Assembly (NCBI RefSeq): GCF_006345805.1
Contig: NC_043000.1
Coordinates: 16,554,001 to 16,618,000, forward strand
Direction: 5' to 3'
Length of the DNA: 64,000 nucleotides
Source of the DNA: Octopus sinensis
Taxonomy: Eukaryota
Position numbers and translations under genes: made by a program. The notes beneath the pieces are model-generated. The model saw only the letters and a program-made list of their open reading frames with translations. It did not search any database and had not been told where the DNA came from. Below are positions 14,437 through 60,384 of this stretch, piece by piece. Position 1 is the stretch's first letter. Every line of letters begins with the position of its first letter.

Positions 14437-14662
14437 TTAACCCTTTAGTATTCACATTATTTTACCAAAATTAATGCTTTTTTATTCACCTTGTTTTGAA
14501 TTCATGCATTATCTTGTAACTTTGAGAGTCTGATGAGGTAATTGTTAATTTTTAAAACGATATTGTAGGGTTGGTGTGAGAGACCAGATCTGGTCAGTTT
14601 GAACATAAAACAGGTAGAATACTTTTGGCCGGATATGGCTGGTTTAAATGCTAAAGGGTTAA
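14437..14662. mobile_element. piggyBac-type MITE
   Basis: ttaaccctttagta...tgctaaagggttaa: inverted termini flanked by TTAA. Confidence 0.75.
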
Positions 14663-14845
14663 CCTCAGAACCACTGAATCTCTTGAAAGAAAAAAAAACC
14701 CCAGAAAAATCTATCCAAATCTGATAACTAGGTTCCCAATGGCAATTGTATCTTCTAGATTGTCCAAATTCAACTTTACAGGCAAGCCAGCAGCAAAAGT
14801 GGATTGATGCCTGGCAAAAATATGGATTGTAGCAACTTAGCAAAC

Positions 14846-15412
14846 CTTTCTGATTTTCATCAACACCAGCCTCTGACTGAGGAATACCATCAAAGTCTTG
14901 GGTGGTATCGTAGTATTCAACAGCTCCATCCTCATCATTAGCATAACCACCATCATAAGTAGCATCACTGCCATCATAAGTAGCATAACCGATATCATAA
15001 TTGGCTAAGCCACTATCACATGTAGCACTGCTAATGTCATAGTTAGCATCGCCACTGTAGTAAGTAGCATTGCCAACATCATCAGTAGCATCACCAACAT
15101 CATCAGTAGCATCACCACCATCATAAGTAGCATCACCACCATCATAAGTAGCATCACCACCATCATAAGTAGCATCACCACCATCATAAGTAGCATCACC
15201 ACCATCATAAGTAGCATCACCACCATCATAAGTAGTATCACCACCACCATAAGTAGCATCACCACCATCATCATAAGTAGCATCACCACCATCATAAGTA
15301 GCACCATCGCCACCATAGTCTATACCAGCACCATCATCATAACTAGTAGCGCTGACATCATAATCACCATCATCAGGCGACTTGGAGAGAGACTCCGCAA
15401 AACTGTAAGGTT
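14846..15412 (-). CDS. Cassette exon, 567 nt, phase 1/1, encoding GGDATYD heptad repeats
   Basis: Acceptor cataattccag|AA CCT (EPYSF…) and donor CAG AAA G|gtttgc. Length is divisible by 3 with no stops. Contains a 21-bp tandem repeat. Confidence 0.7.
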
Positions 15413-15448
15413 CTGGAATTATGTTGGTATACATTATATATATATATA

Positions 15449-15677
15449 TATTTCTTTACTACCCACAAGGGGCTAAACACAAAGGGGACAAACAAGGACA
15501 GACAAACGGATTAAGTCGATCACATCGACCCCAGTGTGTAACTGGTACTTAATTTATCGACCCTGAAAGGATGAACGGCAAAGTCGACCTCGGCGGAATT
15601 TGAACCCAGAACGTAACGGCAGACGAAATACGGCTACGCATTTCGCCCGGCGTGCTAACGTTTCTGCTAGCTCACCA
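15449..15677 (-). mobile_element. tRNA-derived SINE, family B
   Basis: Closely matching reverse complement of 63204-63435, flanked by (TA)n. Confidence 0.9.
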
Positions 15678-21958: not shown

Positions 21959-22156
21959 GAAAATAGGCTGATCCTGCAACAAAAACATAGCATACTGAAT
22001 TAATTGACTACATTACAACACCAACTACTACAACAACAACAACAACAACAATAGCATGTAGAAGACAACAAATTAGCAGGCTGACATGCAACTTGTTAGG
22101 CTAGAGATCATGCAGCGTGACTGTACACTGGCTGTACGTCTAACAGTTAGATATAC

Positions 22157-22328
22157 CTCTACTGGATTTATGGACAGTAGTAGTAGTAGTAGTGTCCGAC
22201 ATACTGTGATGGTATAGCAGAGGATCGGAGGTAGCAGCAGTTTGACTGGTGGAGCTGGAGTCAGGCCGAGTCACAGCAGCATGATAGGTTGAGGAAGAGG
22301 AGGAGGAGGAATTGGAAGAGGAGTAATA

Positions 22329-22360
<32 letters not shown>

Positions 22361-25300
22361 CAGTAGTAGAGGAAACAGGAGAAGAAGGCCGTAAAACGGT
22401 AGAAGGAGGAGGTGAAGAAGTTCTAGGGTGGGAAGTTGTGTGCTCAGAAGGAAGGTTAGAAGAGACTTCTTTGTTGTTAAGTTGGGCAAAGTGATTGTCA
22501 GGAATGACAGACACTTGTTCACTGTCCCCGCCAAGTTCTTCATTATCAGCACTTCTCTTTTTAGCGTTGCGCATGGCTTCCCATTCTGTCATGGTGTAAA
22601 CCTTCTTTTTCTCTTGATAAGGACCCCAGTTAAGGTATGAGTTGTTTCTGGTTGTTTCTTCAAACTCGGTGTTCCAACGGTAGTTCCCTTCTTTATCAAA
22701 CTTTGAATATTCGTATTTATTTCTAAAGTGGCCCGGATACCCCAGATCTGTCCTAACATTGCCTTCATTATCTAAGAAAGGATTGTTGGGATGAGATATT
22801 CCTGTGATCATGCGGATTTCGGGATCTAAAGCAGATGATGTTAATGTCTTACTTGATACCGTCTTGTAATCCATTTCGGTATCGGAACTTTCAAATCTTC
22901 TATCTTTATCAAAATCTACAGATTCTGCAGACATTTGCATGACATCTCTAGAATGGCTTGAGTCACTGTGGGATTCAGATCGTAATGTTTCTTGTGAGGA
23001 ATGGGAAAAGTAAGAGCTGCTTAGACTCCAACGAGCAGACTCCAAAGAGGCTTCCATGATGTTTTGGTGTGTTAGTGCAGGAAAAGCATCAAGTGAATCA
23101 GAAGATGTTTGCATGATGTCATCTTGATCAACCAGTGAATCTGTTTCAAATTTATCAGTATCTTTCACAGTGTCTTTGAATTCCAAAGAATCTGTCGAGT
23201 CTACCATTTCTTTGCTCATTCTTTCTTTCAGTTCTAGAGAATCAGCTGAGCTTTGCATGTCTCGACTAAATTTGTCTTTTATTTCTAACGAATCAACAGA
23301 ACTGTGCATATCAAATGAAGCATCTTGGTCTAACTGCAGAGATTCTACAGAAAATTGCATTGCTGTATCATCTCCTTGCAGAGAATCTCGATCAAAGTCG
23401 AATTGACCCATTTCACTGGAATCTTGTATTTCTGCATTGGAGACAAAGATGACACTAGAAGTAAGTTCATCTTTGCTATCTCCGTCCAATGAGTCTATAT
23501 CGTCTTCTTCTTCTTTAGCCACTTGACTAACATCTTGCATCTTGGGTTCTTCAGAGCTAAGTGAATCCTTATCAATGTCGTCTCCGTCTATGGAGTCCTG
23601 TTCAATATCAAAATTACCTATTATTTCAGGTACATCCCTCATGTGACCATTTGATTGATATGAACTTCCTAAACTTTCACTTTCTGGATATTCAGGCAGC
23701 TCCCCTGATTCCAATATTGACGCTATTTTCTTGGCTTCGGCAGCAAGTTCTTCAGATATGACTATTTCTTGTTCTAGTCGTTCAAATTCGGCAAGCGATG
23801 AACTTGCACTGCGTTTGCTATGGCCACTTGATGAACTGTGGCGATCATCTCCCGAACTGGAGTATCCACCCCCAGTGCACTCTTTTTCGAGGTTTTCAAA
23901 TTCAGCCAGTGATGACATCGATCCATTTGTTGCACTACCTTGTCCTGATGGCATCAACTTGTCTATTGAACTAAACGAGCCAATTGAACCTCCGAGTGCA
24001 ATCTGTCGCTCTAGACGTTCAAATTCTCCTAATGAAGAGGCAACTGACACATCATCTCGATCAGCTGCTCGCCAATGGAAGTTTCGACTGTCAAAAGAGC
24101 TAGGCAGGCTGTGGGCTTCATTTGATCCAAGCGAGCCAAATTGTCCTATTTCACCTTCTAACCGTTCAAATTCTAACAAGGACGAAGAAACAGAAGAAGC
24201 AGCTGACCCATCATCTTTTTCCCGACTTCTGCCAGCGTAACGTATGTTTGGATAGCCGTGGGTGTGACCCACAGTACCAGGTGAGGCAGATATCATTTCC
24301 GGTGAGGTTTTGCTACTAGAATGGCTGTCAGAGAGTGCTTCCAGTTCATCTTTTTCTATCATTTCAAATCGATCTTCATCAGACTTTTCAGATATCACCG
24401 ATAAAGCAGTCTTCCCAATCATCTCAAAACGATCGCTACATGGAGAAGATTCCCCTGATTTGTCCTCTTCTGTCAACAATGGCCAGTCATACGGTTCTTC
24501 TTCTTCTGGTTCAGTATGCATTGAATAAATGTCGGAATGGATTGATGATGTCATCGACGCAACATCAGCCAAGCGGTCATCATCACACTCGTCCCCTTCT
24601 TGGTCTACGCCAACGACTGTTGTAAAGCTGTCCACACTTGATGTATCAGCAATATCTTCGGGGCTCAGAATGTCAGTGGCATGCATGACCGAAGGCTCGA
24701 ATCCAAGGAAACCGTTCTTAGAAGAATCTTTAGTTTCAGAATCCCTTTGGAATTGTTTTGAAGAACTGATAGGAACTGGCTCAGTTTTAGTTTGTAGAGA
24801 AAAGGAGTCTTCAAACGAAGAAGTGGTTGGTACTTTGTCAGGAGTTTCAGAAAATTTCTGCACATTCCATTCAAGTTCTTGTTCACTGGTGAATGTTTTT
24901 GCTGAACCAGCATGAGCATCAGCAATAACGAATGCCGAAGAACTAGGTTCATGAGATGACACTCCGTTCTTTTCGGTCTCTTCGGATTCAAATTCCATTT
25001 CATCCTGAATCATTTCAAAATAGGACATTCCTTCACCCTTTGGACTATCATCTCCAGATTCTTTTTCATCAGATTCTTTGTCTTCCTGCTCAGAGGAAGA
25101 GTCTGGCATGTGTGATGGAACAAAGCCAGATGGAACAAAGTCATCTTTGTCAATACTCTTGTGTAGGTGTTCTGTGATGGTGATCTCGGGCATGTCATCA
25201 TCCCTCTGTTTCGTGAAAGGAGGGGGATGGGAAGGTGGAGGTGGTGCCGAGAAAAAGGCTGGTTGTGACCGACACATCATTGATGGGTCAAATTGTTCTG

Positions 25301-28300
25301 AAAATGAGAAAGCAACCATTTTTTCAGATTCTTTGCTATCATCAAAAGTTGTTTCATCGATTGGCTTTTCAGCTTCTGTTTGTTCAGGGAATACCTGGGC
25401 TTTCTCCTGAACTTTGGAGGCTTCTTCAAGAACAGAGTCTACAAACACTGTAGCTGTTTTCTCAAGTTCTTCTGTGCTAATACTAGCACTAACCTTCTCA
25501 TAATCATCACTGAGGACACCTTCTTGAGAATCCTGGGGTGTTGGGGATATGGGTCTGTCCAAATCTTGTTCCCCTTTAGATGGTTCAAATGATATTTCGG
25601 GGGTTTTTCCTGCTAACGCTTCAAGTTCTTCTTCAGCTTTCTCAGCAAATTCTAGACTACTTTCAGCCAGTTCTACTTGCTCATAAGAAGCATCTTTACT
25701 TAGATCACTAAATTCTTCTTCTACCATGTCTGTACACACTTTTTCTGAAGTGTGAACAAAACTTACATCATGATCGGATTTAAGTTGATCTGAAAACTGA
25801 ACTGTTTCTTCATCAGTATCATCCAGATTAATCCTCTGATCTTCTCTAATTAGGTGGCTAACCTCTACCACACTGGTCTCTCCTTCTTGCTGTCTTTCTT
25901 TGCTTTCCTCTAACAAAGTTTCATAGCTAGACACATCAAACTCAAGTGCTCTTTTACCAGGATAAATTTCATCTTTCTTCAACTCATATGGCTGTTCTTC
26001 AAGGTCATCTAACACTGGTTCCAGTCCAACGATTTCAGTCGGTGATCTAGACTCTACCATTTCAGCTGGATATATCTCACGTTGTTCTTCATGAAATTCC
26101 ACTGTAGGGGCTTCTGTTTTAACAACCACAGATGATGTAGTTTCAGTTATGGAAACAGTAGCTGATGTTGGACCAACTTGTTCAATAGGGGAAGCTTCTT
26201 CCTCCATTGGCATTTCAAGTTCATATAAAGTCTGATCTGACGTTACCAAGACTTCCTGTTGCTCAGCCGACAACTTCACATCTTCTATCAAGCTATCGGT
26301 CATGACATCTCTGACAGCAGCATCAGAACCAGCCGATATCTGATTGTCTTCTAGTTCCATGGCAACATCTTCCTGCTGTGATTTTTCTTCTTCCATAACA
26401 TATGATGGTGAGGACTGAACCAAATCCGGTGGTGCTGCAGGCACCACAGTTTTAACAGTAGATGACACAGAATCGATGTCTGGTTGAAAATCTACCTCTG
26501 TAGGACCATTTGGTAATTGGGAGATTCTGTCGGCAGCAATGTCTTCGATATTTTCAGTTTCACTGATCTCCTCTGTAGACAAACTCTTTTGAAAAGAGTC
26601 AGAGGGTAACAAATCAGGACGGCATGCACCCGGAGATGCAACACTGGAGGCAACAATATCCATAGTGGCTGCACCTTTCTCTGAAGCATCGCTACTGCTG
26701 AAAAGTGACTGATCTGGTGAGGAATCGGTATCAGGTTTCATGGTGTGAGAACTGGGAATCTTACATACTTCTTCCATTGGAGGTGCGGATGGTTCGACAA
26801 AAGCTGTAGCACTTGCAAACTCTTCTAAACTAGACTTCATACTTGTGGGCTCACTAGCTCTGAGGTCAGCAAAACTACTTCCGGATGTAGAGAGGGATTC
26901 CACTGAAGCGGTCAAACTTGCTGTTTCAATGCATCCCGCTATACCACCTTGTAAATATTTAGCAGCATACTGATCATAGCCAATAATTTCAGTTGGTGAA
27001 ACCATTTCAAATGATTGGCCATGATCATCATCATCATCACTGCTTTCATCTTTTGAAAAGTCCTTTTCAAAACTCGAAGGACGTTTTTCAGAAGTTTCAC
27101 TGCTTACAGATCCAAACTGCCGATCAAAGAGACCTTCGGTCTGCAGCTTGTTGGCTGCGTCTTGAAGATTACAAACGGTATCTTTGATGGTGGTTGCATC
27201 TTTGGGCGTCGGTGCAGGAGTTGGCGGTAAAGATTCCGTCGACTCCGACCCCGTTTTGTCTTTGCTGACGCAAATGTCTTCTATAATGATGACCTCAGAC
27301 TGAGGCCCGGTATAACTCTTCTCAGAATCTGGCTCAGTGCAAGGCTCGTCGGTGCGAGTAGTTCCCACAGTAGGTTCAACTTCAAACACGTCATCTTCAG
27401 GACTCGAAAGAATAGCTTTAGGTGCCGGTGGATGTGGCACCTGACTCTCAATGGTGTCTGGAGACATGTCATAAGCTGTCACAATATGTGAAACATGCCC
27501 TGAATCCAAATCATACGAAGCAGCTAATAAAGTTGGTTCGTTGGATACTTCAGAGGAAGAGGTTGATGTTTTAACTAAATCTTCATTGGAAATAGATTGC
27601 CTCAGCTTCTCCTTACTCTCTTCTGATAGAAATGTTACCCTTCTATCTTGCGCTGTCATCTTACTCTCTTCTTGCTCCTCGGAGTCAGTTTTAGAGGCTG
27701 GTGCTTCAGCAATAGGAGAAAGTTCAATTTCAGGAGATTCTTTCTCTGCTTCTGAGGATTCACCATCAGCATAATGCTTCCTTCTGGCAGGGGCAGGATA
27801 GCGATCAACAGGGGGGATTTCAGACCAGAGTTCTTCCTGTAGTTCAGCCTGACTTTCATAAGTGGTTGATAACTCATCACTATCAACTGATGGTGAAAGG
27901 GAGCGATCCTTCTCATCTGCTGACTCCTGTAATAATTCTTTTTGGGCCATCCGAGATTCAATGCTTACAACACCGATTATTCCTGATTTTGGTGACACTT
28001 CTTCACTGTCTGGTTTTGGTCGAAGTTGGTGTTCTTCATCAAGATCATCTTTTGATGGAAGTTTTTCTGAGGAAAGATCTAATGAAAGGTCTGAAGACTT
28101 ACTTTCACTAGGACTGGCTAAGTCACCAGCACTCTTGGAGACCATTTCATACTCAAGATCTTTCTCTTTTAAAGTGTCTTCTCTAGATAATTCATCAGGT
28201 GATTCGGGTGCTTTTTCTTGTTTAGAAGAATGGTCATCCATTATATTAGCCAAAACAGTAGCTTCATATTCTCCAGACATCCTATCATATGGTTCAAGGA

Positions 28301-31300
28301 TATCTTTCTTGGCTTCCACTATAGACTCTTCCTCAGCTTCTTCAATATCATCTTTTTTCTTGGATGTTTTGATGACATGTTCTACAGTGGAAGTTACAGT
28401 GACATGTGCTGACTTAGTTGTCGTGGTAACATGGTCTGTTTTGGCAGTTGGTATGTCAAATTTGTCTTTTGGATCCACAGTAAAATGTTCAGTCTTAGAT
28501 GTTCTGATGACAGGTTCTTCTCTCTTGGATGTTGTGATGACACGTTCTTCTGTCTTGGATGTTGTGACGACAGGTTCACCAGTTTCAGAGGTGGTGATGA
28601 CAGGTTCTCCAGGTTCTGATGTTGTAGTGAAAAATTCTTCTGTTTTGGTTGTTGTAACATCAGGTTCACCAGTTTTAGATGTTGTTGTAACATGTTCTGT
28701 TTTTGATGTTGTGATGACAGGTTCTCCAATTTTAGATGTTGTGATGATGCGTTCTGTCCTGGTTGTTGTGACAACAGGTTCTTCACTTTCAGATTTTGTA
28801 GTAACATGTTCTTCTGTCATTGTTGTACTGACAGGTTCCTCTGCCTTAGATGTTGTGATGACACATTCTTCAGTTTTGGATGTTTTAACATGTTCTTCTG
28901 ACTTGAATGTTGTGACAACAGGTTCTTTGGTTGTAGATGTTATAATACGTTCTTCAGTCTTGGAGGTTATAATGACAGGTTCTTCAGTCGTAGATGTTGT
29001 AACATATTCTTCAGTTTTAGATGTTGTGATAACAGGTTCTTCAGTTGTAGATGTAACATATTCTTCAGTTTTAGATGTTGTGACGACAGGTTCTTCAGTC
29101 GTAGATGTAACATATTCTTCAGTTTTAGATGTTGTGACGACAGGTTCTTCAGTTGTCGATGTTGTAACATGTTCTGTCTTGGAAGTTACAAAGGCAGGTT
29201 CTTCAGCCTCGGATGCTATAGTAATGTCTTCTGTCCTTGATGTTGTGATGACAGGTTCTTCTGTTTTAGAGGTTTTGATGACAGACTCTTCTTTCTTTGA
29301 AGTTGTGATGACAGGTTCTCCAGTTTTGTATGTCGTAGTTATATGTTCTGTCTTCACTGTAGTGATGACAGGTTCCTCGCCTTTAGAAGATGTAACATGT
29401 TCTTCTGTCTTGAATGTTGAGAAGACAGACTTTTCTGTTTTAGATGTTGTGACAATGGGTTCTTCTGTTTTGGATGTTGTGATGATAGATTCTTCTGTCT
29501 TGGATGTTGTGACGACAGGTTCTTCTGTCTTGGATGTTGTGACGACAGGTTCTTCTGTCTTGGATGTTGTGACGACAGGTTCTTCTGTCTTGGATGTTGT
29601 GACGACAGGTTCTTCTGTTTTGGATGTTGTGACAACTGGTTCTTCTGTCCTGGATGTTGTGACGACAGGTTCTTCTGTCTTGGATGTTGTGACGACAGGT
29701 TCTTCTGTCTTAGATGTTGTGACGACAGGTTCTTCTGTTTTGGATAGTGCAGTAGGTTGTTTTTTTATTGTCTTGACTACAATTTGATCTTTGACAGACT
29801 CATCAAAGATATCATCTGGTTTCCTAATTTCTTGTTCAACTTCATCATCATGTTTTGACTCATCCGAACCTGTAGCTACTTCTGATGGAAACTCTTCCAA
29901 ATCTTCTGAAAGCGTGAAGGTAACCCGTTTGGGGGGTTCTTCCTCTTCTTCAGCAATAGACTCAGAGATATCTTGTTCACTAAATGTTATGTTTGAATAG
30001 TCTTTGCTACTTCTCCGGTAAAATACACCCATGTCAACTGACTGCACAGTAACTATTCCTTGTTTTTCTTGCTGTTCAAGATAGTTATCAGAGAACTGTC
30101 GGGAGAAATGATGGACAGTTTCCCAAGGTAACTTTTTGCCAGATTCTTTGTCATAGAAACCTTCACTGTCAGAACTACTGGCCTCTGGGGATATAGTTTC
30201 CACTGTAGACTGATCGAATGGATGAGAAATAATGGGCTCACTAGCTGTGGTTGTAAGATGTCTAGCTGTTTTCTCTGTGGCGTCATGTCCGGTAAGTTCA
30301 ATTCCTTCACTGGGTTCTTTTGCTTGATAGACCTTGGTCTCGGTTATCATTTTACTTTGACTTTCTGATAAAGAGACTTGTGCTCTGGATGATGTTACAA
30401 TGGTTTTTTCTGTTCTTATTTCTGAGGTAGCTTCAAATTGGCCATCGGATGTTTTAGACCTTTGGATAGATTCTTGGAAAGAGTTCTGATCTTTAGTATC
30501 TCCACTTTCTGAACGGGAGGTTTCTTCACTCTCAGAATACATTGCAGCACCACTCTCCTCATCATCATCTTTTTCAAATGAGACCTTGTGTGTTACTTCT
30601 TCAAATTTCATTGAGCTGGAAAACATCTCATTCTCTTCTGATAATTTGGTTTTCCCCAGTGCCTGGATACCCATCTGCCATATTTCTTGATGGACAGCTG
30701 GGAAGTCAAATTGATGTGACTTCTCTTCAAGATCTTCTGGAGATATTTCTTTGGCAGCAAGACTTGGACTCTCTTCAGAGAAGTCATCAGAGTGTGTCTT
30801 TATTTCACTGTCGACAACATCTTCACCAGCAAAACCCATGTTATCAAAGGCCATGGAAGATAAACGTTCCGCTCTTTCTTCAGGTGTTTCTCTTTTATAG
30901 TCATCTTCGGTTCCATCGTGTTCTTCAGACATTAATGATGTAGCAGATTGTTCTGTTACATTATCAAGCTCTAGTCTTTCCTCAGTTGTATCAGAATCAG
31001 TTGAAATCCTAGGGATGTTGAAGGATTCACCACTATCTTTCTCATATTCTACTCTGGGGGTTTTCGAGGCGATTATTTTGGACATTGTTTTGAAATCTTC
31101 AGTTGTTTTTGTTTCATAGAATTCTGAAAGAGATCCCAGCTTGGACTTAGCATTAATCTCTGATGGTGAAAGGCCAACAGTTATTTGCATGTCTTTGACG
31201 TCAAGAAGATCTTGAGCTGGAGATATTTCATTTGCTATTTCAGCAGTTGGGGACTCCACAGGGGATTGGGTGAACGAAAAGAACTTGTCTTCTAACCTAA

Positions 31301-31408
31301 GATCAAGAGCACCTTTAGAAGCAGGAGAACTTTTAGGAAGGGGAGAGAACTGCTCTTCCACATCCGTTTCTTCTGTTTTTTCTTCACTGGTGTCACGCAT
31401 CTCGGCAT
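22157..31408 (-). CDS. Giant exon 2 (9,252 nt, 3,084 codons, phase 1/1) of putative giant ankyrin
   Basis: Uninterrupted 3,086-aa ORF. Acceptor tactaacacactaatatcaccctgatttctatag|AT GCC, donor AGA G|gtatat. S/T/E/P-rich, with TSKTEEPVVT, SSLxEFERLE and DSL repeats. Confidence 0.9.
28480..29745 (-). repeat. Coding 30-bp tandem repeat (TSKTEEPVVT)n
   Basis: Near-perfect units tcttctgtcttggatgttgtgacgacaggt at 29500-29740, degenerating toward 28480. Confidence 0.95.
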
Positions 31409-34134
31409 CTATAGAAATCAGGGTGATATTAGTGTGTTAGTAGACTGCCACCATTCGACTGACAGTGGAGTAGAATGCAGAACAATTAGGAAACATAACA
31501 TAGAAGTAGCTTAGTGAATTGTTAGAAAGAAATGTCAGATGAAAGTGCACAAAATATCTAGAGAGAAGGATGATGATAATGGGTTAGTATTATCATCTAA
31601 TGAATTGTTATTAGTAAGCTGATCTAGTAAAATTATAAGAGATCTACAACATTATTATGTTGATCTGATATAAAACTTATTAATAAGGAGAATTAGTATA
31701 TAACTGTTAATAGAAGGGATCAATGCAATTCTTAATTTATATATAAATGAAGTGAAAAATAATAGAATGGAAACTTAATGTGTGTGTTACATATCTACTC
31801 GATAAATATAAGGAATATTACTCTGTAATTATAAAAGAACTTAAACCAATGAGAAATTAGGAAATATAGAAGAAATACACCCTTATTATTTAAGTAAAAC
31901 CATAGGGAGACAATAAGAAAGGGGTTAAGGTATCAACTAAACACCAATATGGCTTGAATTTTATTGTCTCCTTAGGCAAGGCATACAACTCAAGTTGCCC
32001 AAGAATCCTTTATCAATGATAAATGAGGGAAGTGGATGTGGGGAGGAATCACTGAACAACATCTTTGCATCAGTCAACCCACCACTCTTAACTTAATGAT
32101 TAATGTGATTAATGATTGAAAAGGCTACATAACTTTAAAACATATTAATACAATTGCTGTAAATATTTGATTTTGCAGAAATATTCAACCTACATCAGTA
32201 GAGAATAGTTAAATGCTAAAATTAAAACATTAGCAACAAAAACAAATAAATAAGAGCTTAAAACTTTATAAAATTTAGTAATTGCTTTTGTAGTGTTTTA
32301 TGAGTGATTGTCATTTTGCTTTCATTCTTAAAGCTCTTACAGCGAGCATAGGATTGGTTCTTTGAAAGTTTCTTTGTAAAGAAACTCAGATATTGTAGAT
32401 CCGTAGATCCGAGAAAGCAGCAAAGTTAATTGTGATATGCAGGATAAATCTCTTAAATTTTAAAAGATACTTGCACAATTCATACTTAGTTATGGCAGAA
32501 CCTTTTCTCACTGCTAAGTCAACTGAGAAAAATACCTATGTATGTAGAACAAGAGAAAGGAAAAAAAGGAGAACTTGTGAGAGAATCTCCATGGGGCCAG
32601 TTGGTCTGTGCAATCTAGAAGTCAAATATTTCTCAATAAAATCTTTATTAGTTTTATATTAACATAGGTTTTCAGCTCTAAATCTCAAGGAACAAAATTC
32701 CTTATAATAAAGACAAGAGCCAGAAATCTGATCAGAATGGTTTGTCCAATCAACTAGCTCTGCACCATAAATCTATTTAAATGGTAACAGTAATCTGATG
32801 TAGAATTTGAACCCCGAAAGTCATGTTTCATTAATTTTTAAGAGAATAAAAACCACAACAAAAGCAAACATGCTATTTCCATCAGAAAATTTTCTATTTT
32901 TGGAAAAAATAACAAAATTCTTTCACATATCATTTTTTGGTTGTTGTGGTAACGAGTATTCTAGAATTGAGTGAAATGCCTTAATCTATGAACAAATCTG
33001 GAAAGGAGAGGAAGGGTGACAGAAGAAGAGATGATTTCAAGAAAGAATATTTAATATTAAAAGATCTTCACCCTAAAGTGTTTCATCCAGAACCAACTTA
33101 CGGTCGAAATTAGGCGGACTAAAACACACATTATCCAATAAAATTAATTGCATGAGAACGAGTAATGTTGCCATTTTAATATCACTGGATATCATGTTAT
33201 ATCATTAAATATAATGTTATATTATTTAATATCAGCCTGCAAGAAAGCAAACCATTGAACCAAAAGCTGAAAGCTCATATGTGTATATATAGTGTGTGTG
33301 TGCATGTGTATATACATGTATATACATACACACACACATGTACAATTGCATACATGTAAGTATATATATATATATATTACACATACACATATACAGCATA
33401 TATATAGACACAAATCATGAAGATGACATAGAATTTATAGGATAAGTGGAAAATGATGAACGAGAAGTAGAAGAAGTAGAAAAAACAAACAAACATGCAA
33501 AATACTGCCAAAAGCAAAAGAAAAAATTCCTGAAAGAGAAAAATAAACATCGAAATTTTTAAACAATTTTTTCTGTTTATATATTATATATATATATATA
33601 TATGTATACATATATATATATATATATATAGTCGGTGACATTGAAAAAGCATTAACAGTGAAGCATGATGACGGACATGTGGCTAAGTTTAAAACCATTT
33701 TATCACATGTAGCAGCGAGGAAACGGTAATAGTGGTTTCTAAAAAAAAGGGAAAAAATATATCTAAAAGAATGAAAAAAGAGTGAAAAAAAGGTGAAATA
33801 ATGAGGTAAAAAAAAACAACGACAACAACAAGAGGTAAGAGAGAGGTATGAAAAAAATTGGTAAAGCACCTTATCACTGCATGTGTGAGTGTATATGAAC
33901 ATGTAATATATTTATGTAGAAAAGCACCAATTTATACATATATGTATGTATGCATACTCAGACACATAAATACATGTAAAGTATCAATTTATACACGCAT
34001 ATCTTATACATGTGTCTTTGTGTACATGTGCATATATATATGCATTCAATGGTGTCTATGAATTGACTGTGTGTATGAGGTTGTGGCCATACATAAATGT
34101 ATTTACTTGTGCAGCGGTGCTGCTTTCTTTTGTA

Positions 34135-34417: not shown

Positions 34418-34531
34418 GAAAATGGTCTAGTGGAAATGCAGTCATACACACAGACAAACAGACAGACACACACACACATCTAGAAGAATGCGTGGAAAGA
34501 ATTCATGCTTGTGTTCAGTTTCCACAGCTAC

Positions 34532-34678
34532 CTGGCAGAAAATCTACATCTTCAACTTGCGCTACTTCGGAACTGGAGGAGCTGAGGTTCTCCTCCTCTT
34601 CCTCCTCCTTCTCCTCCTCATCCTTCGCAGCCGTTATTAATTCTCGCTGGACATCATGCTGGTCAGTACGAGGCATAT
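34532..34678 (-). CDS. Exon, 147 nt, phase 1/1 (DMPRTDQHDVQRELITAAKDEEEKEEEEENLSSSSSEVAQVEDVDFLP)
   Basis: Acceptor tctcttcttgtctcag|AT ATG and donor CCA G|gtagct. Confidence 0.85.
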
Positions 34679-46530: not shown

Positions 46531-47376
46531 CTTTCTCTTGGAATACATATGGCAAATTCCGACGAGACTTTGTCCCTGGAGCGGAATATGTTCTACTGCG
46601 GGTCTTAGACGGGTCCCATTCCGGGTCCCAAGAACAGGCTCGCATCAAAAATTCTGGGTCAGTTGACTCTGTTGTCATGCTATCATCACAGCCTAAAGTG
46701 TCTAGTCCAGACTCTACTGTTATGTGAATTTGACTGGGGTCAGTATCAAATCGTACTGACCTCTTTGCAGGTAAACATGTCAGCTCACTCTGTGGTTTCG
46801 AGCAAGCTTGAGACACAAGTGAGTCAGTCGCTGCACTCACGTTGTTCAACTCACCTTCTTTCGACTCTGCGGAATAAACAACTTGCTCGGCTTGTTCACT
46901 TGTTTCAGCGATCTCTTCGCCTGTTTCTTTGTAAAGCTGCTCATAACTTGAAGAGCGTCCAGTTGGCTGAAGATGTAGGTCAAGTTGTTTTGTGTCAAAA
47001 CGATCTCCGATGTCTAGATCACTGGCATTCATGGCTAACTTGCTGACTTCAGGAGCGAGTTGCACTCCGTCATAAACATTTTCATAACTGGACATCATGC
47101 GTTCAAAGTCTTCTTCAGTTAGAGCTCGATCATCGGAGCCGCTGTCTTCTCTACAGGGTTGCTGAGATTGTACAGCAGCTACTTGTTCGCCAAAATCAGA
47201 ACTGCTGATACTAGAATACGTGTTGTTGTCTCTAGACTGAGATGATGACATCAACGCTGGTTCAGTGGAAACCGAATCTTCATCTTGTAACGTGGAATCA
47301 GGCATCGATATTTTGTTTCCCTCACAAACAATTTGTTCAACCATCTGCTCAAATATGATCTCCTGTTTGTCAATAC
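46531..47376 (-). CDS. Exon, 846 nt, phase 1/1 (GIDKQEIIFEQMVEQ…NLPYVFQEK)
   Basis: Acceptor tgttgtttttgtgcag|GT ATT and donor GAG AAA G|gtatcg; lies inside the 328-aa ORF. Confidence 0.85.
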
Positions 47377-52352: not shown

Positions 52353-52491
52353 GTTGTTTCTTTACTAATAACATTTCTGATTGGAGAGCAAGTGTAAAAC
52401 TGCTTGTGAATATGTGTGTGTGTGTGTGTTATCATTTAAGATTACTGCAATACGGTACCTAACTAATAAATAGAATCAAAGTGAAATATAC

Positions 52492-55400
52492 CTTTTAGAT
52501 CAGCATCTGCGGTGAACTGATCATCTCGTGTGGGAGCGGATGGCTGTTGAGCAAGCTGTTGACTAGTTTCATCTCGGTCTTTATCTACTGATTCATACTC
52601 GTCTTCAATCTCAACTGCTGTTAAACCATTATCCTGTAACCCGAGAGCTTTGGCAAGTTCTTCCTGCTCAAGGGATGTTAATAGTGTGAATTCTGATGGT
52701 GACGGAGGTCTCTCTTCATCCTTTTTCAGGTCAGACTCCTCTTGTTCAAGTTCAGCTTCTCTGCTTAATTCGATGCTCATTCTACTATCGATGTCAGACT
52801 GTGAATCAAGCGAACGTCTGAACTCTTCTCCGATTTGGGATTGTGTCATCGGGTCAATCATTGATTGGGTCAATGATTCATGGGACTCGATCATCGACTG
52901 AGTCATTATGTCTTGATCGTCAACCACAGACTGAAGTGCCTCATGAAGTTCCAATTGGGATTCAGTCATGAGTGTGTATTCAGTGGGTGACAGGGGTCTG
53001 CCATTGCTGTCTTTGTCGGTCTTGTCTTTTAATGGGTACTCAATACTCTCGGTCATTTGATCAATTGCCCTCAGTTTTTTGATGCGTTCAGTTGAATAGT
53101 ACTCACCAGAACTGTCATCATCATCGCTGGCACTGGGAGTAGCTGAACGTTCCTGTGCTTCGGTGGAAGAAGATGGGACAAGGATGTTACGGGCACCCAA
53201 ACCACTTCCATCACGGTGATAAGAGGAGAAGTCAGAGGAGTAATTCGTATAGTCATCAGTTATGTGGGAGTTGTATGAAGTGAAATCTTCAGTGAAATTC
53301 ACTTTATCAGTAGCAATCTTGTGTGACACTTTCTCGGTTTCTTTTAGAGATTCAGATGGAAACAGCCCAGTACTCTGTCCAATAGTTGATTTCTCATTGG
53401 TCAATGTGCTGGTTTTAGTGTCGGTTATTTCCTGGACTGTTTCCTGTTTCCCTAAAAAAGGAATCTGATCTTCTTGGGGTTGAACAGGTTGTTGGCTCTT
53501 TGAAGGGATATCACTGTCTTTCAGTGTACCTTTCCGAACTGATGTTACGTCTTTGTCTGGGTGTAAAGGAGGAAACCTGTCGGTGGCATTAAAATCAGGC
53601 CCACCATTTCTCTGAACAATTCTGAAGTCAATCGTGTCCCTTTGTTGATGTTCAAAATATTCTCGTCTGTCAATAAACTGGTCTTCAGCTTCAGTCTCAT
53701 CAACTTCTTCTTCAACAAGATCTTCCATTCTTGTTGAGGTCATTAAATGACCACTCCTTGTTAAAGCCTCCATTTGTTCGTTCTCCTCATCACTATGTTC
53801 AATGAAAGAATGGTCGCTCTCACCCCCAGAATCTTCTCCTTCAATTACTTCAAGAACTCTAGCTGTTTCAGGTTCTTTTAATTCAACCACTTCTTTGTGA
53901 AAAGTGTCTTCGTGTTGTACGTTCTCCTCAATTTCAGATGTTTGAGATTTGAACTTTTTGTCTGTTTTATCAATTTCCATCAAGTCATCGGTGATTGTCA
54001 TGCTCAGCTTGGACTCATCCTTTACAGCTACTTCTTTTTTAATTTCTTTCTGGAAATCATCTTCTCTGCTGACAGTATCAGTGACAATTTCCAGTTTAGA
54101 ATCTTTCTCAGTCAGTTTCTGTTCCAAATCTTCAATTTTCTGAATTTCTCCGTCTTTCGATTCTTTTTCATACTGCTGTTTCCCAATCTCTTCTTCAAAT
54201 GACTTATCACATACAGATGACTTTTCTTGACTTATTTCTATCTTGGTGCCATCTTCTTCAAAAGTCTGAGATTTCCCTTCAGTCAGTTCACTATGCATTT
54301 TGAGGGCATCTTTAGTTGTTAATTCTTCAGTTGTTTCCTTTTGAAACTCATCTTCTACAGTTGCCTGTTCCCTTTTACTCTCAGACTCTACATCTTTTTG
54401 TTTCACTGAACGAGTTTCATCTTTGATTGATTGAATTTCATCACCGACAGTGGTCGATCGGGTAGTACTCTCCTCTGTTGTTGCGGTTTCTGATCTCTTT
54501 ACTTTCACATCTTCAATAATCTTTGATTCTGATGTGAATTTGCTGGGAGTTATGTCGTCAAGAACTTTACGTTCCTCAATAGAGCCTTCATGAACTGTAG
54601 TTTCTTGAACTCGAGTTTCTTGTTTGAAACTCTCGTTCCTTACTTCTTTGTTAGAGATCTCTTCTTTAACAAGTTGTTCCTCTGATGTTTGAAAAGGAAA
54701 TGATTTTGTAAAGTCTACTTGATCTTTGTCAGTACTCCTCCTCGATAGATCATCATCTGCTCCACTTTTAAAGCCACTATCTGTAATATCTTCAGATCTT
54801 TTCTCCATTTCATCTGTGACATCTATACTCTGAGATTTAGACATATAATCCATTTCTGTCATTATGTCAACATCATCATGATCATCATCATCGCTCTCAT
54901 CATCACTCGATAGATATTTCTCTTCTTGGAAGTCGTGAGGCGAAGTTTCTTTAAACTTAGCATCAGACTCTGCTTGTAAAGCAGCAAGATCAACAGAATA
55001 TTTCTCCTCAGTTCGGTCAGAAGTGTCATCCTTGGCTACATGTTTTGGAGATTGCTCAGTTAGGGGAGATTCCGCTTTGGGAATGCTTCTAATACTCTCC
55101 ACCGATGTTTCATGTGCCAAGGCACTAGATACTAAAAAAGGATCGGCACTAAAACTAAGACCATCGCTTTTGGCCGGTGTTTTATATTCAATTTTTTCAG
55201 GTGAGGCAACTGTCATGAACTGCTCTTGCCTGCTGATTTCAAAATAAGTAGCTTCCTCTGACAGAATGGAACTAAACTGAGGTGCTGTTTTCTTTGAGGT
55301 ATCAGTTTCCTGGATTTCTTCAGATGTTTCCTCATCAGATGTCATGTCCTGCTCATCTTCTACACGGTATTCTTGGGAGATTTTACTTGAATACACAGAT

Positions 55401-58400
55401 TTCTCTTCTTTGCTGATACTTTCTTCTATCATTTCAGATGTACTTGATGTTTTATATTCTGATGTTACTGTGGAAATCCGTTGTTCATGAGTAACGGAGG
55501 TTTGATCTTTGGGTGAAGTATACTTTTCTTCTTCTTCTTCCTCCTGACAGCTCTTTTCATGTGTCAGGAACATTTCCAGAGAACTACCTTTGGATCCTTC
55601 ATCTGAAGACAAGTCTTCTTGTACAGGGAATTCATAAGTTATCTCTGTTCGATCACCCAGATCTTTTTTAAGATGGTCTGCTGTTGGTGATAATCCCGGT
55701 GACTCTGTCGAGGATACCTTTTTCTTGGAGTCCTCATATGACCTCTCAGTGAATTCCTCTTTTGTTCTTTGATCAGTGTGAGTAAATATTTCATCTGATT
55801 CCTCATCTGAAACATCCTGTAATTGTTGTAATCGTTTGACTGCTCTTTCTTGGGTTTCTTCAAGCACTTTTTCTCTAATATCTTCCTTTAAAGCATCCAG
55901 CTGAACCTCTACTAAACTCTCATCAGACATAGATTCAGCCTGTCTGTCAAATCGTTCAGTAGCTTCTGGTGCTGGAGTCTGCCACTCATGAATTTCTAGT
56001 TTCTCTGGAGAGTCTATAATCATTTTTTCTTCCTGTCGAGAGATCTCAAACAGTTCACCAGACGATGATTTTCTAGTAATTTTTTGCTCCACAGGTGAAA
56101 CCTCAACACTGTCAGCAGGTACACTTTCCACTACTTTACTCTCCTGTACGTCATCACATACAGGAGATCGCATCTCGTTTTTTGAAAGAAAATCTTTCTC
56201 ACTAGATATAGTTGTGCTTTCCTTATCTTCATCTTCAATTACTTTGGTTGTGTGTTCAGAGATGGTTGTTGACACTTCCTTGACAGAGGTTGTGGAGACA
56301 ATGGTGTGCACATCCTTGTCAGCAAATTTGCTTGAGATTATGTCTTTAGATGGCTCGGGCTTCGATGTATAGAAACTGCGAGATTCCTTTTCTAAAAAAA
56401 CTTCTCTCCTTGAGATTTCATAATCAGTATCTTTGTGAGGTTCTTCTTCTAGTTGTGTCTGAAGGCCATCATCTGGTGGCTCAGCTCCATGTTCTTTTGG
56501 AGGACAAACCTTGTCAGTTGATGAAAGATCAATAGCAGCTGGTTCGAACGGTGTCTGGCGCTCTATGGAAATTTTGGCTTCCAAAATTTCCTCCTGCTCA
56601 ATAATTTCAAAATCTTCTTCATCATAGGGCTTAGGACAAATTTCAGAGGCCTGAGGCTCTGGGGAAGATGCTTTCAGCTGTGGTTCTGGTGAAGGAGACT
56701 TGAGTTGAGGCTTTGATGATAGAATCTTTTCTTTAGGTTCTGGTGAGGGAGACTTTGATTTCAGACGTGGTGGAGAGGGTGACTTAGCTTTAGGTTCTGG
56801 TGAGGGAGACTTTGACTTTATGTGTGGTGGTGATGGAGTTTTCTCTTTAGGCTCTGGTGAGGGAGTCTTCCCTTTAGGTTCTGGTGAGGGAGACTTTGAC
56901 TTCAGGTGAGGTGGTGAGGGAAGCTTTGACTTTAGGTGAGGTGGAGAGGGAGGCTTATCTTTAAGTTCTGGTGAGGGAGACTTTGACTTTAGGTGGGGTG
57001 GTGATGGAGTCTTCTCTTTAATTTCTGGTGAAGGACTCTTTGACTTCAGGTGAAGTGGTGAAGGAGCCTTATCTTTAAGCTCTGGTGAAGGAGACTTTGA
57101 CTTTTGCTGAAGTGGTGAGGGAGTCTTTGATTTAGGTTCTGGTGAGGGAGATTTTGACTTTAGGCGAAGTGGTGATGGAGTCTTCTCTTTAAGTTCTGGT
57201 GAAGGACTCTTAGACTTAAGGTGGAGTGGTGAAAGAGACTTGTCTTTAGGTTCTGGTGAGGGAGACTTTGACTTTAACCGAAGTGGTGATGGAGTCTTTT
57301 CTTTAGGTTCAGGCGAGGGAGACTTTGACTTTAACCGAAGTGGTGAGGGAGACTTATCTTTAGGTTCAGGTGAGGGAGATTTTGACTTTAACTGAAGTGG
57401 TGAGGGAGACTTATCTTTAAGTTCAGGCGAGGGAGATTTTGACTTTAACTGAAGTGGTGAGGGAGACTTATCTTTAAGTTCAGGCGAGGGAGATTTTGAC
57501 TTTAACTGAAGTGGTGAGGGAGACTTATCTTTAGGTTCAGGCGAGGGAGATTTTGACTTTAACTGAAGTGGTGAGGGAGACTTATCTTTAGGTTCTGGTG
57601 AGGGAGATTTTGACTTTAGGTGAGATGGCGAAGGGGATTTTGATTTTAGGTGAGGTGGTGATGGAGACTTCTCTTTCAGATCTGGTGAAGGACTCTTTGA
57701 CTTAAAGTGGAGTGGTGAAGGAGACTTGTCTTTAACTTCTGGTGAGGGAGATTTTGACTTTAACTGAAGTGGTGAGGGAGACTTATCTTTAGGTTCAGGC
57801 GAGGGAGATTTTGACTTTAGGTGTGGTGGCGAGGGGGACTTTGACTTTAGGTGAGGTGGTGAGGGGGACTTATCTTTAGGTTTTGGTGAAGAAGACTTAA
57901 GTTGTAACTTTGGTGAAGGAGTCTTATCTTTAAGTTCTGGTGAAGGGGACTTTGACTTCAGGTGAGATGGTGAGGGAGACTTATCTTTAGGTTCTGGTGA
58001 GGGAGACTTTGACTTTAGGTGAGGTGGCGAGGGAGACTTTGATTTCATGTGAGGTGGTGATGGAGTCTTTTCTTTAGGTTCTGGTGAGGGAGACTTTGAC
58101 TTTAGCTGAAGAGGTGAAGGAGATTTATCTTTAGGTTTTGGTGAAGGAGATTTCTCTTTAGGTTCTGGTGAAGGAGTTTTCTCTTTAGGTTCTGGTGAAG
58201 GAGTTTTCTCTTTAGGTTCTGGTGAAGGAGTCTTAAGTTGGGGCTCTGGTGAAGGAGACTTAAGTTGGGGCTCTGGTGAGGGAGTTTTCTCTTTAGCCTC
58301 ATGTAAGCGTGATTTCAGCTGAGGTTCTGGTGAAGGTGATTTATCCTTAAGTTCAGGTGAGATATCTTTATCAAGTGAGGATATAGTTTTGTCCAAAGTC

Positions 58401-59517
58401 TTAGATGATAAAATTTGGCTATCTTCAGAAGTGAAGATCTCTTTTACTTTGCCATCATCTACAGAATATTCTACTTTCTGTTTCATTTCTGTTGTTTCAG
58501 TCTTGAAGCTCTTCTCAACTGATGATACAGTTTCTTTACTCTCTTTAGGAAATTCCTTCAAATCAGGAGTTTCCCCTTCTGAAGAAATGCTTTCTTTTTT
58601 CTCTTGGAATACGTGACTTTCCTTTATCTCCTGGACTGCACTTTGAGAAGAATCAGTTTTCCAAGATTTTGTCACTTCTTTTTGTACTGTTTCTTTGCTA
58701 TCCTTGTCAAATGACATGGCCTCTTTCTTTGACGGCTTTTCACGAGTTGTAGCTTCCTCAAACTTGGCAATCAGTGATGAAGTGCTTTCGCGTCGTTCTT
58801 CAACGACTTCACTTTTTTGCTCTCCTGTAGAAGACACTTTTACAGTTTCAGATCGGATTTCACTCGTTTCAGATGCAGTTTGGTATGACCTTTCACTTCC
58901 TTTCGAGGTAGTGTCTGGTGTTTCTTCATCAGAGCTTAATAACTCATCAGGTTGAGTTGTGACATAATAATTTTGGGCATGTTTACCAGTAAACATTTTC
59001 AGTTTCTCAGAAAATTCAAGATTTTCATCATCTGAGGGAGTCTTAAAGTGGGCGTCGGGCGGTTCCGGGACACCGTAAGGTTGATCAACATCATCAGCTT
59101 TCTCTGAAGATTTATGTTTTGCTAAAGTGCTTGTGTGAACTTTGGTGGCTTCACGTATAATAGTTTTTTCAGACATGGAGCCATTCTTAATTTTGTCCTC
59201 AAATTTCTCTTTGACAGCAGAGACTTTTACCCATTCTTCTACCTTTGGAGCAGAATCTTCTGTTTCAACATAAGTACCATTGGCTGATGGCACCTTTTCT
59301 GCATCAAAGCCATCAAGATCGCTGTCGTCAATGACAACCCACTCAGAAGAGTCTTGCTTTACGAATTCCTGAGATTCTTTGCGTAACGTTGCTTGTGCTG
59401 ATTTCTGGACTTCACGAACAATGTCTGTAGCTGAACTTTGCAAAGCAGTGTCAGATGTTTGCTCAAACATTTGAATAATAGAAGCGACTGATCTTGTTTT
59501 ACCCTCACTCTCATCAT
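52492..59517 (-). CDS. Giant exon 1 (7,026 nt, 2,342 codons, phase 1/1) of putative giant ankyrin
   Basis: Uninterrupted 2,353-aa ORF. Acceptor cccttgatag|AT GAT, donor CTA AAA G|gtatat. Contains a KSPSP repeat array and LIR-like motifs. Confidence 0.9.
56660..58345 (-). repeat. Coding repeat array (KSKSPSPEPKDKSPSPLQL, 57-bp higher-order unit with 27/30-bp sub-units)
   Basis: Visible in both the translation and the DNA (ggtgagggagactttgac repeats). Confidence 0.95.
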
Positions 59518-60384
59518 CTATCAAGGGTTTGTTTTTTTGTCAATAGTTTTGTTTTTGTTTGTTTTACAATTAAAGGTAGGTAAAAAAAAAAAAAAATCCG
59601 ACAGCAATCCGAAATGCAAGCATTAAAAAGGAGAGATTTCAAGATGAGTAAATTGGAAATGTTATTAGAAGGAAATGGTTTACAGAGTTTTGCTTTAAGT
59701 AATACACATTAGTTATTGTAAAGGAATTATTGAGAAAATGGAACATTACCAAAAAAAAAAAAAAAAAAAAAACCATACACACGCACATATAGATACATAT
59801 ATTATATATACATTTATATGTATTTGTGTATGTTTTTCTGTATCTGTGTGTAGCAATGTGTGAGAGTATATGTATATAAGTTTAAATTGAAAATGCTGGA
59901 TTATAATTAATAAAGAGTTAAGAAGATTAAATAATGGGAAAAAAAAAATCAGAGTTAATTAAAAGTTCATTTTAACCTGGTTAATGATGAAATGTTCTGA
60001 TCAGAATTATTAATTACCATTAATGCAACGAGAACCCTGGATATACCAAAAATCTTTCAAGTGAAATAGTAAAAATTTGGAATTTCTAAAAGAATATGAT
60101 GTATAAATTACTCAGTTGATGCCAACTTTTGGTTTAAAGTATTTACTAATGTAAAGATTAGTAAATAGGAATTTTGATGGGGTCAATATAAATATAAAGT
60201 AATTTAAGAATTTAAGTTATAGGTATTGAAAAGGGATCAGATCTTCAGGCCTCAAAGAAACTATTTTGGTAAACAAAACAAATGAAGATCATTTTCTTTT
60301 TTATGGGTATATCATTCCAGAATACTCTAAACATTTAATTATAAACATACAAGAATATCACGATAACACAAGATTATCAAGTTT

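What the first reader, a model, noticed from the sequence alone, without database searches (positions are those of the whole stretch)
56573..56626. AnkB/AnkG-type extended LIR motif (DEEDFEIIEQEEILEAK) in an invertebrate giant exon
Seen: acidic lead-in, core F-E-I-I, then EQEEILEAK, placed just after the KSP array. Known: mammalian giant AnkB and AnkG bind GABARAP/LC3 with very high affinity through a LIR followed by an amphipathic EEI-x-EAR helix (from memory, AnkB EEEWVIVSDEEIEEARQ). The spacing here matches position for position. Inference: Atg8-family binding by giant ankyrin is either ancestral to bilaterians or convergent. This is also the best in-window support for the ankyrin identity.
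Basis: partly seen in the sequence, partly recalled or inferred. Interest (0 to 1): 0.8.

Follow-up and report, generated by a model that had tools for sequence, protein, structure and literature searches.

The report
Octopus giant ankyrin carries LIR motifs
An octopus giant-ankyrin gene carries several short motifs that likely bind the autophagy protein GABARAP, as human giant ankyrins do; the flagged motif could be traced only in octopuses, while a near-twin in the next large exon is kept across molluscs.

Summary
The motif is real. Window 56626-56573 (minus strand) reads YDEEDFEIIEQEEILEAK, 56 bp after the KSP array, in a 7-kb spliced exon of an ankyrin gene. ANK, ZU5, UPA and death-domain exons lie 90-190 kb upstream, and an Octopus bimaculoides gene model joins them to this exon.

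The motif meets the sequence rules for a 'LIR core + C-helix' (Phe0, Ile+3, Glu+7, Ile+8, Ala+11). It matches AnkB at 8 of 16 positions, a score that at most 2 of 1500 shuffles reach.

That motif class also occurs in FAM134B and FYCO1, so it neither identifies ankyrin nor shows shared ancestry. The motif is missing from the held part of a cuttlefish/squid-like orthologue, which is cut short at its start.

Better-conserved candidates lie in the same gene. F2357 of the next giant exon (24368) keeps the pattern in 38 of 59 homologues, and F2284 (52690) is identical in the distant cephalopod.

Best reading: a likely functional, lineage-specific GABARAP-binding site in a multi-LIR giant ankyrin. 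Binding is untested. I found no report of such sites in invertebrate ankyrins.

The parts
56564..56626 (-). Flagged extended-LIR candidate (F977): acidic lead-in, core F-E-I-I at 56611-56600, Glu+7 at 56590, Ile+8, Ala+11 at 56578, Ile+15 at 56566; predicted C-helix
   Evidence: rules from PMC8727931
52492..59517 (-). Giant exon A of the ankyrin gene (7026 bp, phase 1-1). The 3' donor is shown by spliced contigs; the 5' acceptor is inferred from AG and the O. bimaculoides model
56682..58360 (-). KSP/SPSPEPK tandem array directly upstream of the motif
59306..59350 (-). Second extended-LIR candidate W67 (S-S-E-W-V-V-I, Asp+7, Leu+8, Phe+11); second-best AnkB match in exon A (score 32; 95th percentile of shuffle maxima 24-27)
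59222..59242 (-). W103 core W-V-K-V, fitting the GABARAP-interacting motif [W/F]-[V/I]-x-V; no acid at +7
52643..52702 (-). Candidate F2284 (S-P-S-E-F-T-L-L, Glu+7, Leu+11, Leu+15); 15 of 15 residues identical in the distant cephalopod P0001. A related copy Y2188 lies at 52978 (also 15 of 15; Met at +3, Gln at +7)
24333..24377 (-). Candidate F2357 in giant exon B (E-D-R-F-E-M-I, Glu+7, Leu+8); pattern kept across cephalopod, bivalve and gastropod homologues
22140..31436 (-). Giant exon B ORF (3098 aa), homologous to the C-terminal part of Mytilus, Saccostrea and Crassostrea ankyrin-2-like proteins that carry ANK, ZU5, UPA and death domains
46856..47376 (-). Exon C, joined to the 3' end of exon A in a contig of run X20; the lower bound is approximate (alignment to P0086)
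34515..34678 (-). Alternative short exon ending in a stop, joined to exon A in contigs of runs X4 and X16

Best explanation
The motif lies in a spliced giant exon of an octopus ankyrin gene and is likely a working extended LIR, predicted to bind GABARAP. Phe0 and Ile+3 would fill GABARAP's two hydrophobic pockets, Glu+7 would pair with Arg67, and a short helix (Ile+8, Ala+11, Ile+15) would lie along GABARAP helix 3. It is likely one of several such sites in this giant ankyrin (W67, W103, F977, F2284, exon-B F2357), and likely an octopod-specific copy rather than the descendant of the AnkB/AnkG site. By analogy with AnkG, the giant tail would tether GABARAP-bearing membranes or receptors to the ankyrin scaffold. 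Shown: sequence, gene, 3' splicing, rule match, conservation pattern. Inferred: binding, helix, origin, cell role.
For: All published sequence rules are met. It is the best AnkB match in the exon, and at most 2 of 1500 shuffles reach it. The +5..+15 stretch is among the 62 most helix-prone of 2347 11-mers of the ORF. Exon A holds 3 rule-fitting sites against 0.39 expected when S/T count as lead-in acids (P=0.006). An almost identical sequence (F-E-I-I-E/N-K-E/D-E/D-I/L) is the mollusc-wide form of the exon-B site, so this gene keeps this kind of motif under constraint. The genome's GABARAP exon keeps D54, L55, Q59, F62, L63 and R67, of which D54, Q59, F62, L63 and R67 contact C-helices in solved complexes. 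Contigs from four runs cover the motif and end at the exon's 3' donor, with loose ends that map to downstream exons for X20, X4 and X16.
Against: There are no binding data. The motif is not seen in the held part of the only distant orthologue, P0001. Rule-based enrichment over all seven long ORFs is not significant (P=0.08-0.12), and the P=0.006 value is one of several tests run. The helix is only weakly amphipathic (moment 0.16; Leu at +9 where AnkB has Glu), and there is no Ser/Thr/Asp at +4 or +5 as in AnkB, FYCO1 and FAM134B. Many canonical LIRs do not bind LC3B, and classifiers separate binders poorly. P0001 has a formal rule hit (Y227) where octopus has Leu, so such hits can be unstable.
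Confidence: 0.55

Rival explanations
1. The flagged site is a neutral look-alike that arose in an acidic, disordered, fast-evolving exon. GABARAP binding, if the protein has any, runs through the conserved sites (F2284, exon-B F2357).
For: The ORF is 65% S/E/T/D/K/P. The strict pattern appears in 8-15% of shuffles of this ORF. Only 1 of 15 positions matches P0001 at the aligned place, inside an unalignable stretch. Identity in O. bimaculoides is uninformative (725 of 1365 18-mers are identical).
Against: The AnkB-level match is reached in at most 2 of 1500 shuffles, helix propensity is high, and the site closely resembles the conserved exon-B site. P0001 starts at an internal Met, so the motif may lie upstream of the held part.
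Confidence: 0.22
2. The acidic-hydrophobic motif is functional but binds another partner, such as a FIP200 claw domain, SUMO (SIM-like) or a sorting adaptor (acidic di-leucine-like). These consensus patterns are recalled, not taken from a call.
For: Such motifs overlap the LIR consensus (own knowledge). The conserved exon-B site sits in a longer invariant block (A-L-S-x-I-x-E-x-S), and its own 12-residue window ranks only 66 of 355 for identity in that region, so more than a LIR is conserved there.
Against: In 37 of 37 mollusc-like rows the exon-B site keeps an aromatic at 0, Glu at +1 and Asp/Glu at +7, with I/L at +3 in 35 and L/I/M/V at +8 in 34, while +2 varies freely among hydrophobes. 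This is the LIR+C-helix signature.
Confidence: 0.13
3. The site is the direct descendant of the same ancestral motif as the AnkB/AnkG LIR, kept since the bilaterian ancestor.
For: 8 of 16 identities in register. Jegla et al. argue for a single origin of the long exon.
Against: The site is not traceable even to a decapodiform-like orthologue. Long exons of distant phyla share no detectable homology and sit on the other side of the death domain. The core to +8 part is closer to FYCO1 than to AnkB, and its residues at 0, +1 and +5 equal those of FAM134B (F455, E456, Q460).
Confidence: 0.1

Closest known systems
Giant ankyrin-B LIR (human ANK2 W1592-V-I-V, E1599, A1603; PDB 5YIR) and giant ankyrin-G LIR (ANK3 W1989-I-E-F, E1996, A2000); Li et al. 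2018, seen only through PMC8727931, PMC9100651, PMC7297954 and PMC7564214
   Same: Lies in the long exon of a giant ankyrin; acidic lead-in, aromatic-x-x-aliphatic core, Glu+7, Ile+8, Ala+11, basic +12.
   Different: Phe rather than Trp; Glu+1; Glu/Gln rather than Ser/Asp at +4/+5; Leu at +9. The exon is downstream of the death domain, not upstream. There are several candidate sites instead of the one described site. No alignable flanks; binding untested.
FAM134B/RETREG1 LIR (F455, E456, L457, L458, D459, Q460, E462, L463, I466; PMC8727931)
   Same: F-E-aliphatic-aliphatic-acid-Gln core with an acid at +7 and an aliphatic at +8; residue classes match at every listed position from 0 to +8.
   Different: An ER-phagy receptor in the membrane, unrelated to ankyrin; Ile at +11 where the octopus site has Ala.
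FYCO1 LIR (F-D-I-I core, E1287, I1291)
   Same: F-acid-I-I core with Glu-Glu at +6/+7 and an aliphatic at +8; BLOSUM62 27 over core to +8, against 20 for AnkB.
   Different: An LC3-selective motor adaptor, not an ankyrin; its lead-in is less acidic.
Protostome giant ankyrins (Drosophila Ank2-L/XL, C. elegans UNC-44, Aplysia, Lottia; Jegla et al. 2016, PMC5135030)
   Same: Long exons downstream of the death domain, S/E/T/D/K/P-rich (65% here), with lineage-specific repeat arrays.
   Different: That paper's main text has no occurrence of GABARAP, Atg8 or LC3 and covers no cephalopod. This locus has at least four long coding stretches.

Membership tests
Canonical ankyrin gene | ANK repeats, ZU5-ZU5-UPA and death domain in order on the same strand, upstream of this exon | tested here: met
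   ZU5 at C4:16.744M, UPA at 16.714-16.716M, DD at 16.711M, all minus strand; ANK exons near 16.80M
Protostome-type giant ankyrin | Long exon (>3 kb) downstream of the death domain, with S/E/T/D/K/P >55% | tested here: met
   7.0-kb exon A and 9.3-kb ORF B; 65% S/E/T/D/K/P in A
Protostome-type giant ankyrin | Exon A is joined to the ankyrin core in a transcript | tested here: inconclusive
   The 3' join to exon C is seen in contigs. The 5' join rests on the predicted O. bimaculoides model XP_052823414.1; no reads were laid there
LIR core + C-helix motif | Core [W/F/Y]-x-x-[L/I/V] with acidic residues upstream | tested here: met
   E-E-D-F-E-I-I
LIR core + C-helix motif | Glu/Asp at +7 and a hydrophobic residue at +8 or +11 | tested here: met
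   E+7, I+8, A+11
LIR core + C-helix motif | [quoted passage not shown] | tested here: inconclusive
   High helix propensity (62 of 2347 windows as good) but a low hydrophobic moment, 0.16
LIR core + C-helix motif | Measured binding to an Atg8-family protein that depends on the core and on the helix | not testable with these tools
   Needs ITC/BLI or pull-down
AnkB/AnkG LIR (homologous site) | Positional homology: traceable at the same place through intermediate orthologues | tested here: not met
   Found only in O. bimaculoides; not in the held part of P0001 (N-terminally incomplete); no hits beyond cephalopods
GABARAP-interacting motif (GIM) | [W/F]-[V/I]-x-V | tested here: not met
   F-E-I-I does not fit; W103 (W-V-K-V) in the same exon does

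The most novel reading that the evidence does not exclude
Atg8/GABARAP binding is an ancestral job of bilaterian giant-ankyrin long exons. It is kept by the gain and loss of short extended LIRs inside otherwise unalignable sequence, and in cephalopods it has grown into a multivalent array of four or five sites. This would be the first sequence-level functional trait shared by vertebrate and protostome long exons.
Probability: 0.3. Interest if true: 0.75.

Novelty: new member of a known kind. Interest (0 to 1): 0.5.

Why it matters
Giant ankyrins are argued to have one bilaterian origin, yet their long exons share only composition, not sequence (PMC5135030). [quoted passage not shown] If invertebrate long exons carry working extended LIRs, the ankyrin-GABARAP link is older than vertebrates or arose repeatedly. 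It could then be tested with a few short peptides and studied in invertebrate neurons. The flagged site alone is modest; the mollusc-wide exon-B site and the cephalopod-invariant F2284 site are the sharper test objects.

Tried and rejected
Complex prediction of the 36-aa motif peptide with a GABARAP from a metagenome contig (65 of 66 residues identical to the genome's own exon) gave no verdict: scores 0.26 and 0.24 against a mark of 0.34, controls not folded, and the method is untested on peptides. It is used neither for nor against binding.

PDB sequence searches with the F977 and W67 peptides found 0 hits and 1 chance hit at E<=10. Pfam found nothing in exons A, B or C. The ESM Atlas gave only hits under 0.8 for the exon-B region.

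Run X20 (about 92% identical) covers the motif without a gap, but only 40 of about 300 substitution rows were shown, none reaching the motif, so its state there is unknown. Jegla's S2 Table cells are cut at 400 characters, so the Aplysia, Lottia, fly and worm long exons could not be scanned. Li et al. 2018 and Nelson et al. 2020 are not held, and their content is second-hand. The careful tree did not finish; the quick tree is cited. DNA likeness of the exon-A and exon-B motifs (30 of 48 bases) cannot tell duplication from convergence. Earlier scan findings: none.

Rejected: the motif as proof of ankyrin identity, and identity in O. bimaculoides as proof of constraint.

Full report
Observation. 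Window 56573-56626 on the minus strand reads YDEEDFEIIEQEEILEAK. Phe is residue 977 of a 2358-aa open frame, 52463-59539, 56 bp after the KSP array at 56682-58360. In register -3..+12 the match is 8 of 16 identities, BLOSUM62 40, the best site in the frame; W67 is second with 32. Shuffled frames reach 40 in 0-2 of 1500 trials. That test is post hoc. Bare LIR cores are common (11 in this frame, 29 in the next giant frame), and a rule-based extended LIR appears by chance in 8-15% of shuffles of this frame.

The gene. The window is G000:C4:16554001-16618000. ZU5 (16.744M), UPA (16.714-16.716M) and a death domain (16.711M) lie upstream on the same strand. Bivalve ankyrin-2-like proteins map in order to ANK exons, ZU5, UPA, the death domain and then window exons at 47.1k, 31.4-22.5k and 7.5k. 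The O. bimaculoides model XP_052823414.1 (P0086, 7515 aa, a prediction) runs ANK-ZU5-ZU5-UPA-DD, exon A, exon C, exon B, last exon. Contigs of 4 of the 24 listed runs were laid. All four cover the motif and end at the 3' donor; loose ends map to exon C (X20) and to a short stop-bearing exon at 34678 (X4, X16). Three of the four are only guessed to be RNA, but the joins skip introns. The 5' join was not tested with reads. The layout is the protostome type described by Jegla et al. (PMC5135030; parts 1-4 of 10, passages and S4 Table read).

Motif rules. PMC8727931 (passages) defines 'LIR core + C-helix' by an acid at +7 pairing with GABARAP R67 and a hydrophobic residue at +8 (FAM134B, SEC62, Ede1) or +11 (AnkG, AnkB, FYCO1, STX17). 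The site has E+7, I+8 and A+11, and its +5..+15 stretch is as helix-prone as only 62 of 2347 windows. Its hydrophobic moment is low (0.16) and it lacks Ser/Thr/Asp at +4/+5. The genome's GABARAP middle exon keeps D54, Q59, F62, L63 and R67. Because the class occurs in unrelated proteins, and core to +8 scores 27 against FYCO1 and 20 against AnkB, the motif does not identify ankyrin.

Conservation of the flagged site. It is identical in O. bimaculoides, but the region is 96% identical and 725 of 1365 18-mers are identical. The only distant orthologue found is P0001 (unnamed, 44% identical). I read it as decapodiform because P0003, from a contig of the same length, groups with P0002, whose cluster holds a Sepia pharaonis protein. 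P0001 aligns only from about 190 residues downstream of the motif and has a different repeat array before that; no such motif is in its held part. It begins at an internal Met and the upstream DNA could not be read, so absence is not proven.

Better-conserved sites in the same gene. F2284 (52690) and its sister Y2188 (52978) are 15 of 15 identical in P0001; 28 of 1165 windows are that conserved. F2284 has E+7, L+11 and L+15, the AnkB/G spacing, with Ser-Pro-Ser before it, so phosphorylation control is possible (inference). Exon-B F2357 (24368) was examined in 78 homologues. After dropping 19 redundant isoforms, 38 of 59 carry the strict pattern: 39 hits against 7.3 expected, 37 of them in the homologous stretch. 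In the 37 of 61 distinct rows that keep the upstream A-L-S-x-I block, position 0 is F/Y in 37, +1 is E in 37, +3 is I/L in 35, +7 is D/E in 37 and +8 is L/I/M/V in 34; +11 is mostly Glu, so the helix would be short. Many bivalve-clade rows read F-E-I-I-E-K-E-D-I or close to it, nearly the flagged motif. In the other 24 rows, unnamed and 23 of them outside the group holding the named molluscs in a quick tree, acid-led cores remain: 22 against 5.0 expected, and 13 against 1.3 with an acid at +7. Caveats: the homologues were found with the region that contains the site, the rows are related, and the site's window ranks only 66 of 355 for identity in that region.

Mechanism. Most likely the disordered giant tail presents several extended LIRs, each docking on GABARAP's LIR site with a helix on helix 3, and the flagged one is an octopod addition (0.55). 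By analogy with AnkG, which limits GABA-A receptor endocytosis through GABARAP (passages of bioRxiv 10.64898/2026.10.23.760718; PMC7564214; PMC12190637), it would tie GABARAP-bearing membranes or receptors to the scaffold. That role is inference only. Rivals are a neutral look-alike (0.22), another partner (0.13) and direct descent from the AnkB/G site (0.10).

Novelty. Searches for UNC-44+LGG-1+LIR (0 papers), Ank2+Atg8a+LIR (one review listed), giant ankyrin+Atg8+invertebrate+conserved (one review, listing only), giant ankyrin/UNC-44/Ank2/autophagosome (15 of 18 listed, none on this by title or abstract start) and ankyrin+octopus+giant exon (0) found no report of LIRs in invertebrate giant ankyrins. 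Li et al. 2018 and its supplements were not seen and may hold invertebrate alignments; most subscription papers are not searched. Also read as passages: PMC7615515, PMC6499816 and PMC7297954.

Verdict: a real motif and a new candidate member of a known class, in a setting where I found none reported. Interest is 0.5, and most of it rests on the conserved neighbours rather than on the flagged site.

Noticed in passing
window 24333-24428 (-): The exon-B site F2357 is preceded by a second F-E-M-I core (F2337). In distant unnamed homologues the stretch often holds two acid-led aromatic-acid-x-aliphatic cores in tandem although the flanks do not align.
   Followed up: yes
window 52978 and 52690 (-): A duplicated R-P-x-S-P-[ST]-E-[YF]-T-L motif with a helix-prone tail near the end of exon A, invariant between octopus and P0001; possibly a phospho-regulated LIR.
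   Followed up: partly
window about 56370, 56050 and 55246 (-): A thrice-repeated [YF]-E-I-S-R-x-E motif in exon A, twice followed by S-P-E-K; similar copies are in P0001. It does not keep LIR spacing consistently; partner unknown.
   Followed up: no
window 24170-23786 (-): Four copies of S-S-L-x-E-F-E-x-L-E in the conserved C-terminal block of exon B; no Pfam family.
   Followed up: no
window 34515-34678 (-): A short exon with a stop, spliced to exon A in runs X4 and X16; it would give an isoform that ends before exon B and so lacks the conserved LIR candidate.
   Followed up: partly
G000:C4:16653152-16658410 and 16627608-16643581 (L009-L013): Two more long coding stretches of the same gene upstream of the window. 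The second falls into three frames within a long repeat array, possibly through assembly frameshifts. No extended-LIR hits.
   Followed up: partly
window about 28400-29750 (-): A T-S-K-T-E-E-P-V-V-T tandem array in exon B, a second lineage-specific repeat.
   Followed up: no
window 14502-15455 (-): A 317-aa open frame with Y-D-G-G-D-A-T repeats between exon B and the last exon, not matched by the ankyrin models mapped; perhaps an alternative exon or a tandem repeat.
   Followed up: no
P0001 residues 1-150: About ten F-S-S-V-D units stand where octopus has the KSP array and motif; each is a bare LIR core without the +7/+8 pattern.
   Followed up: partly
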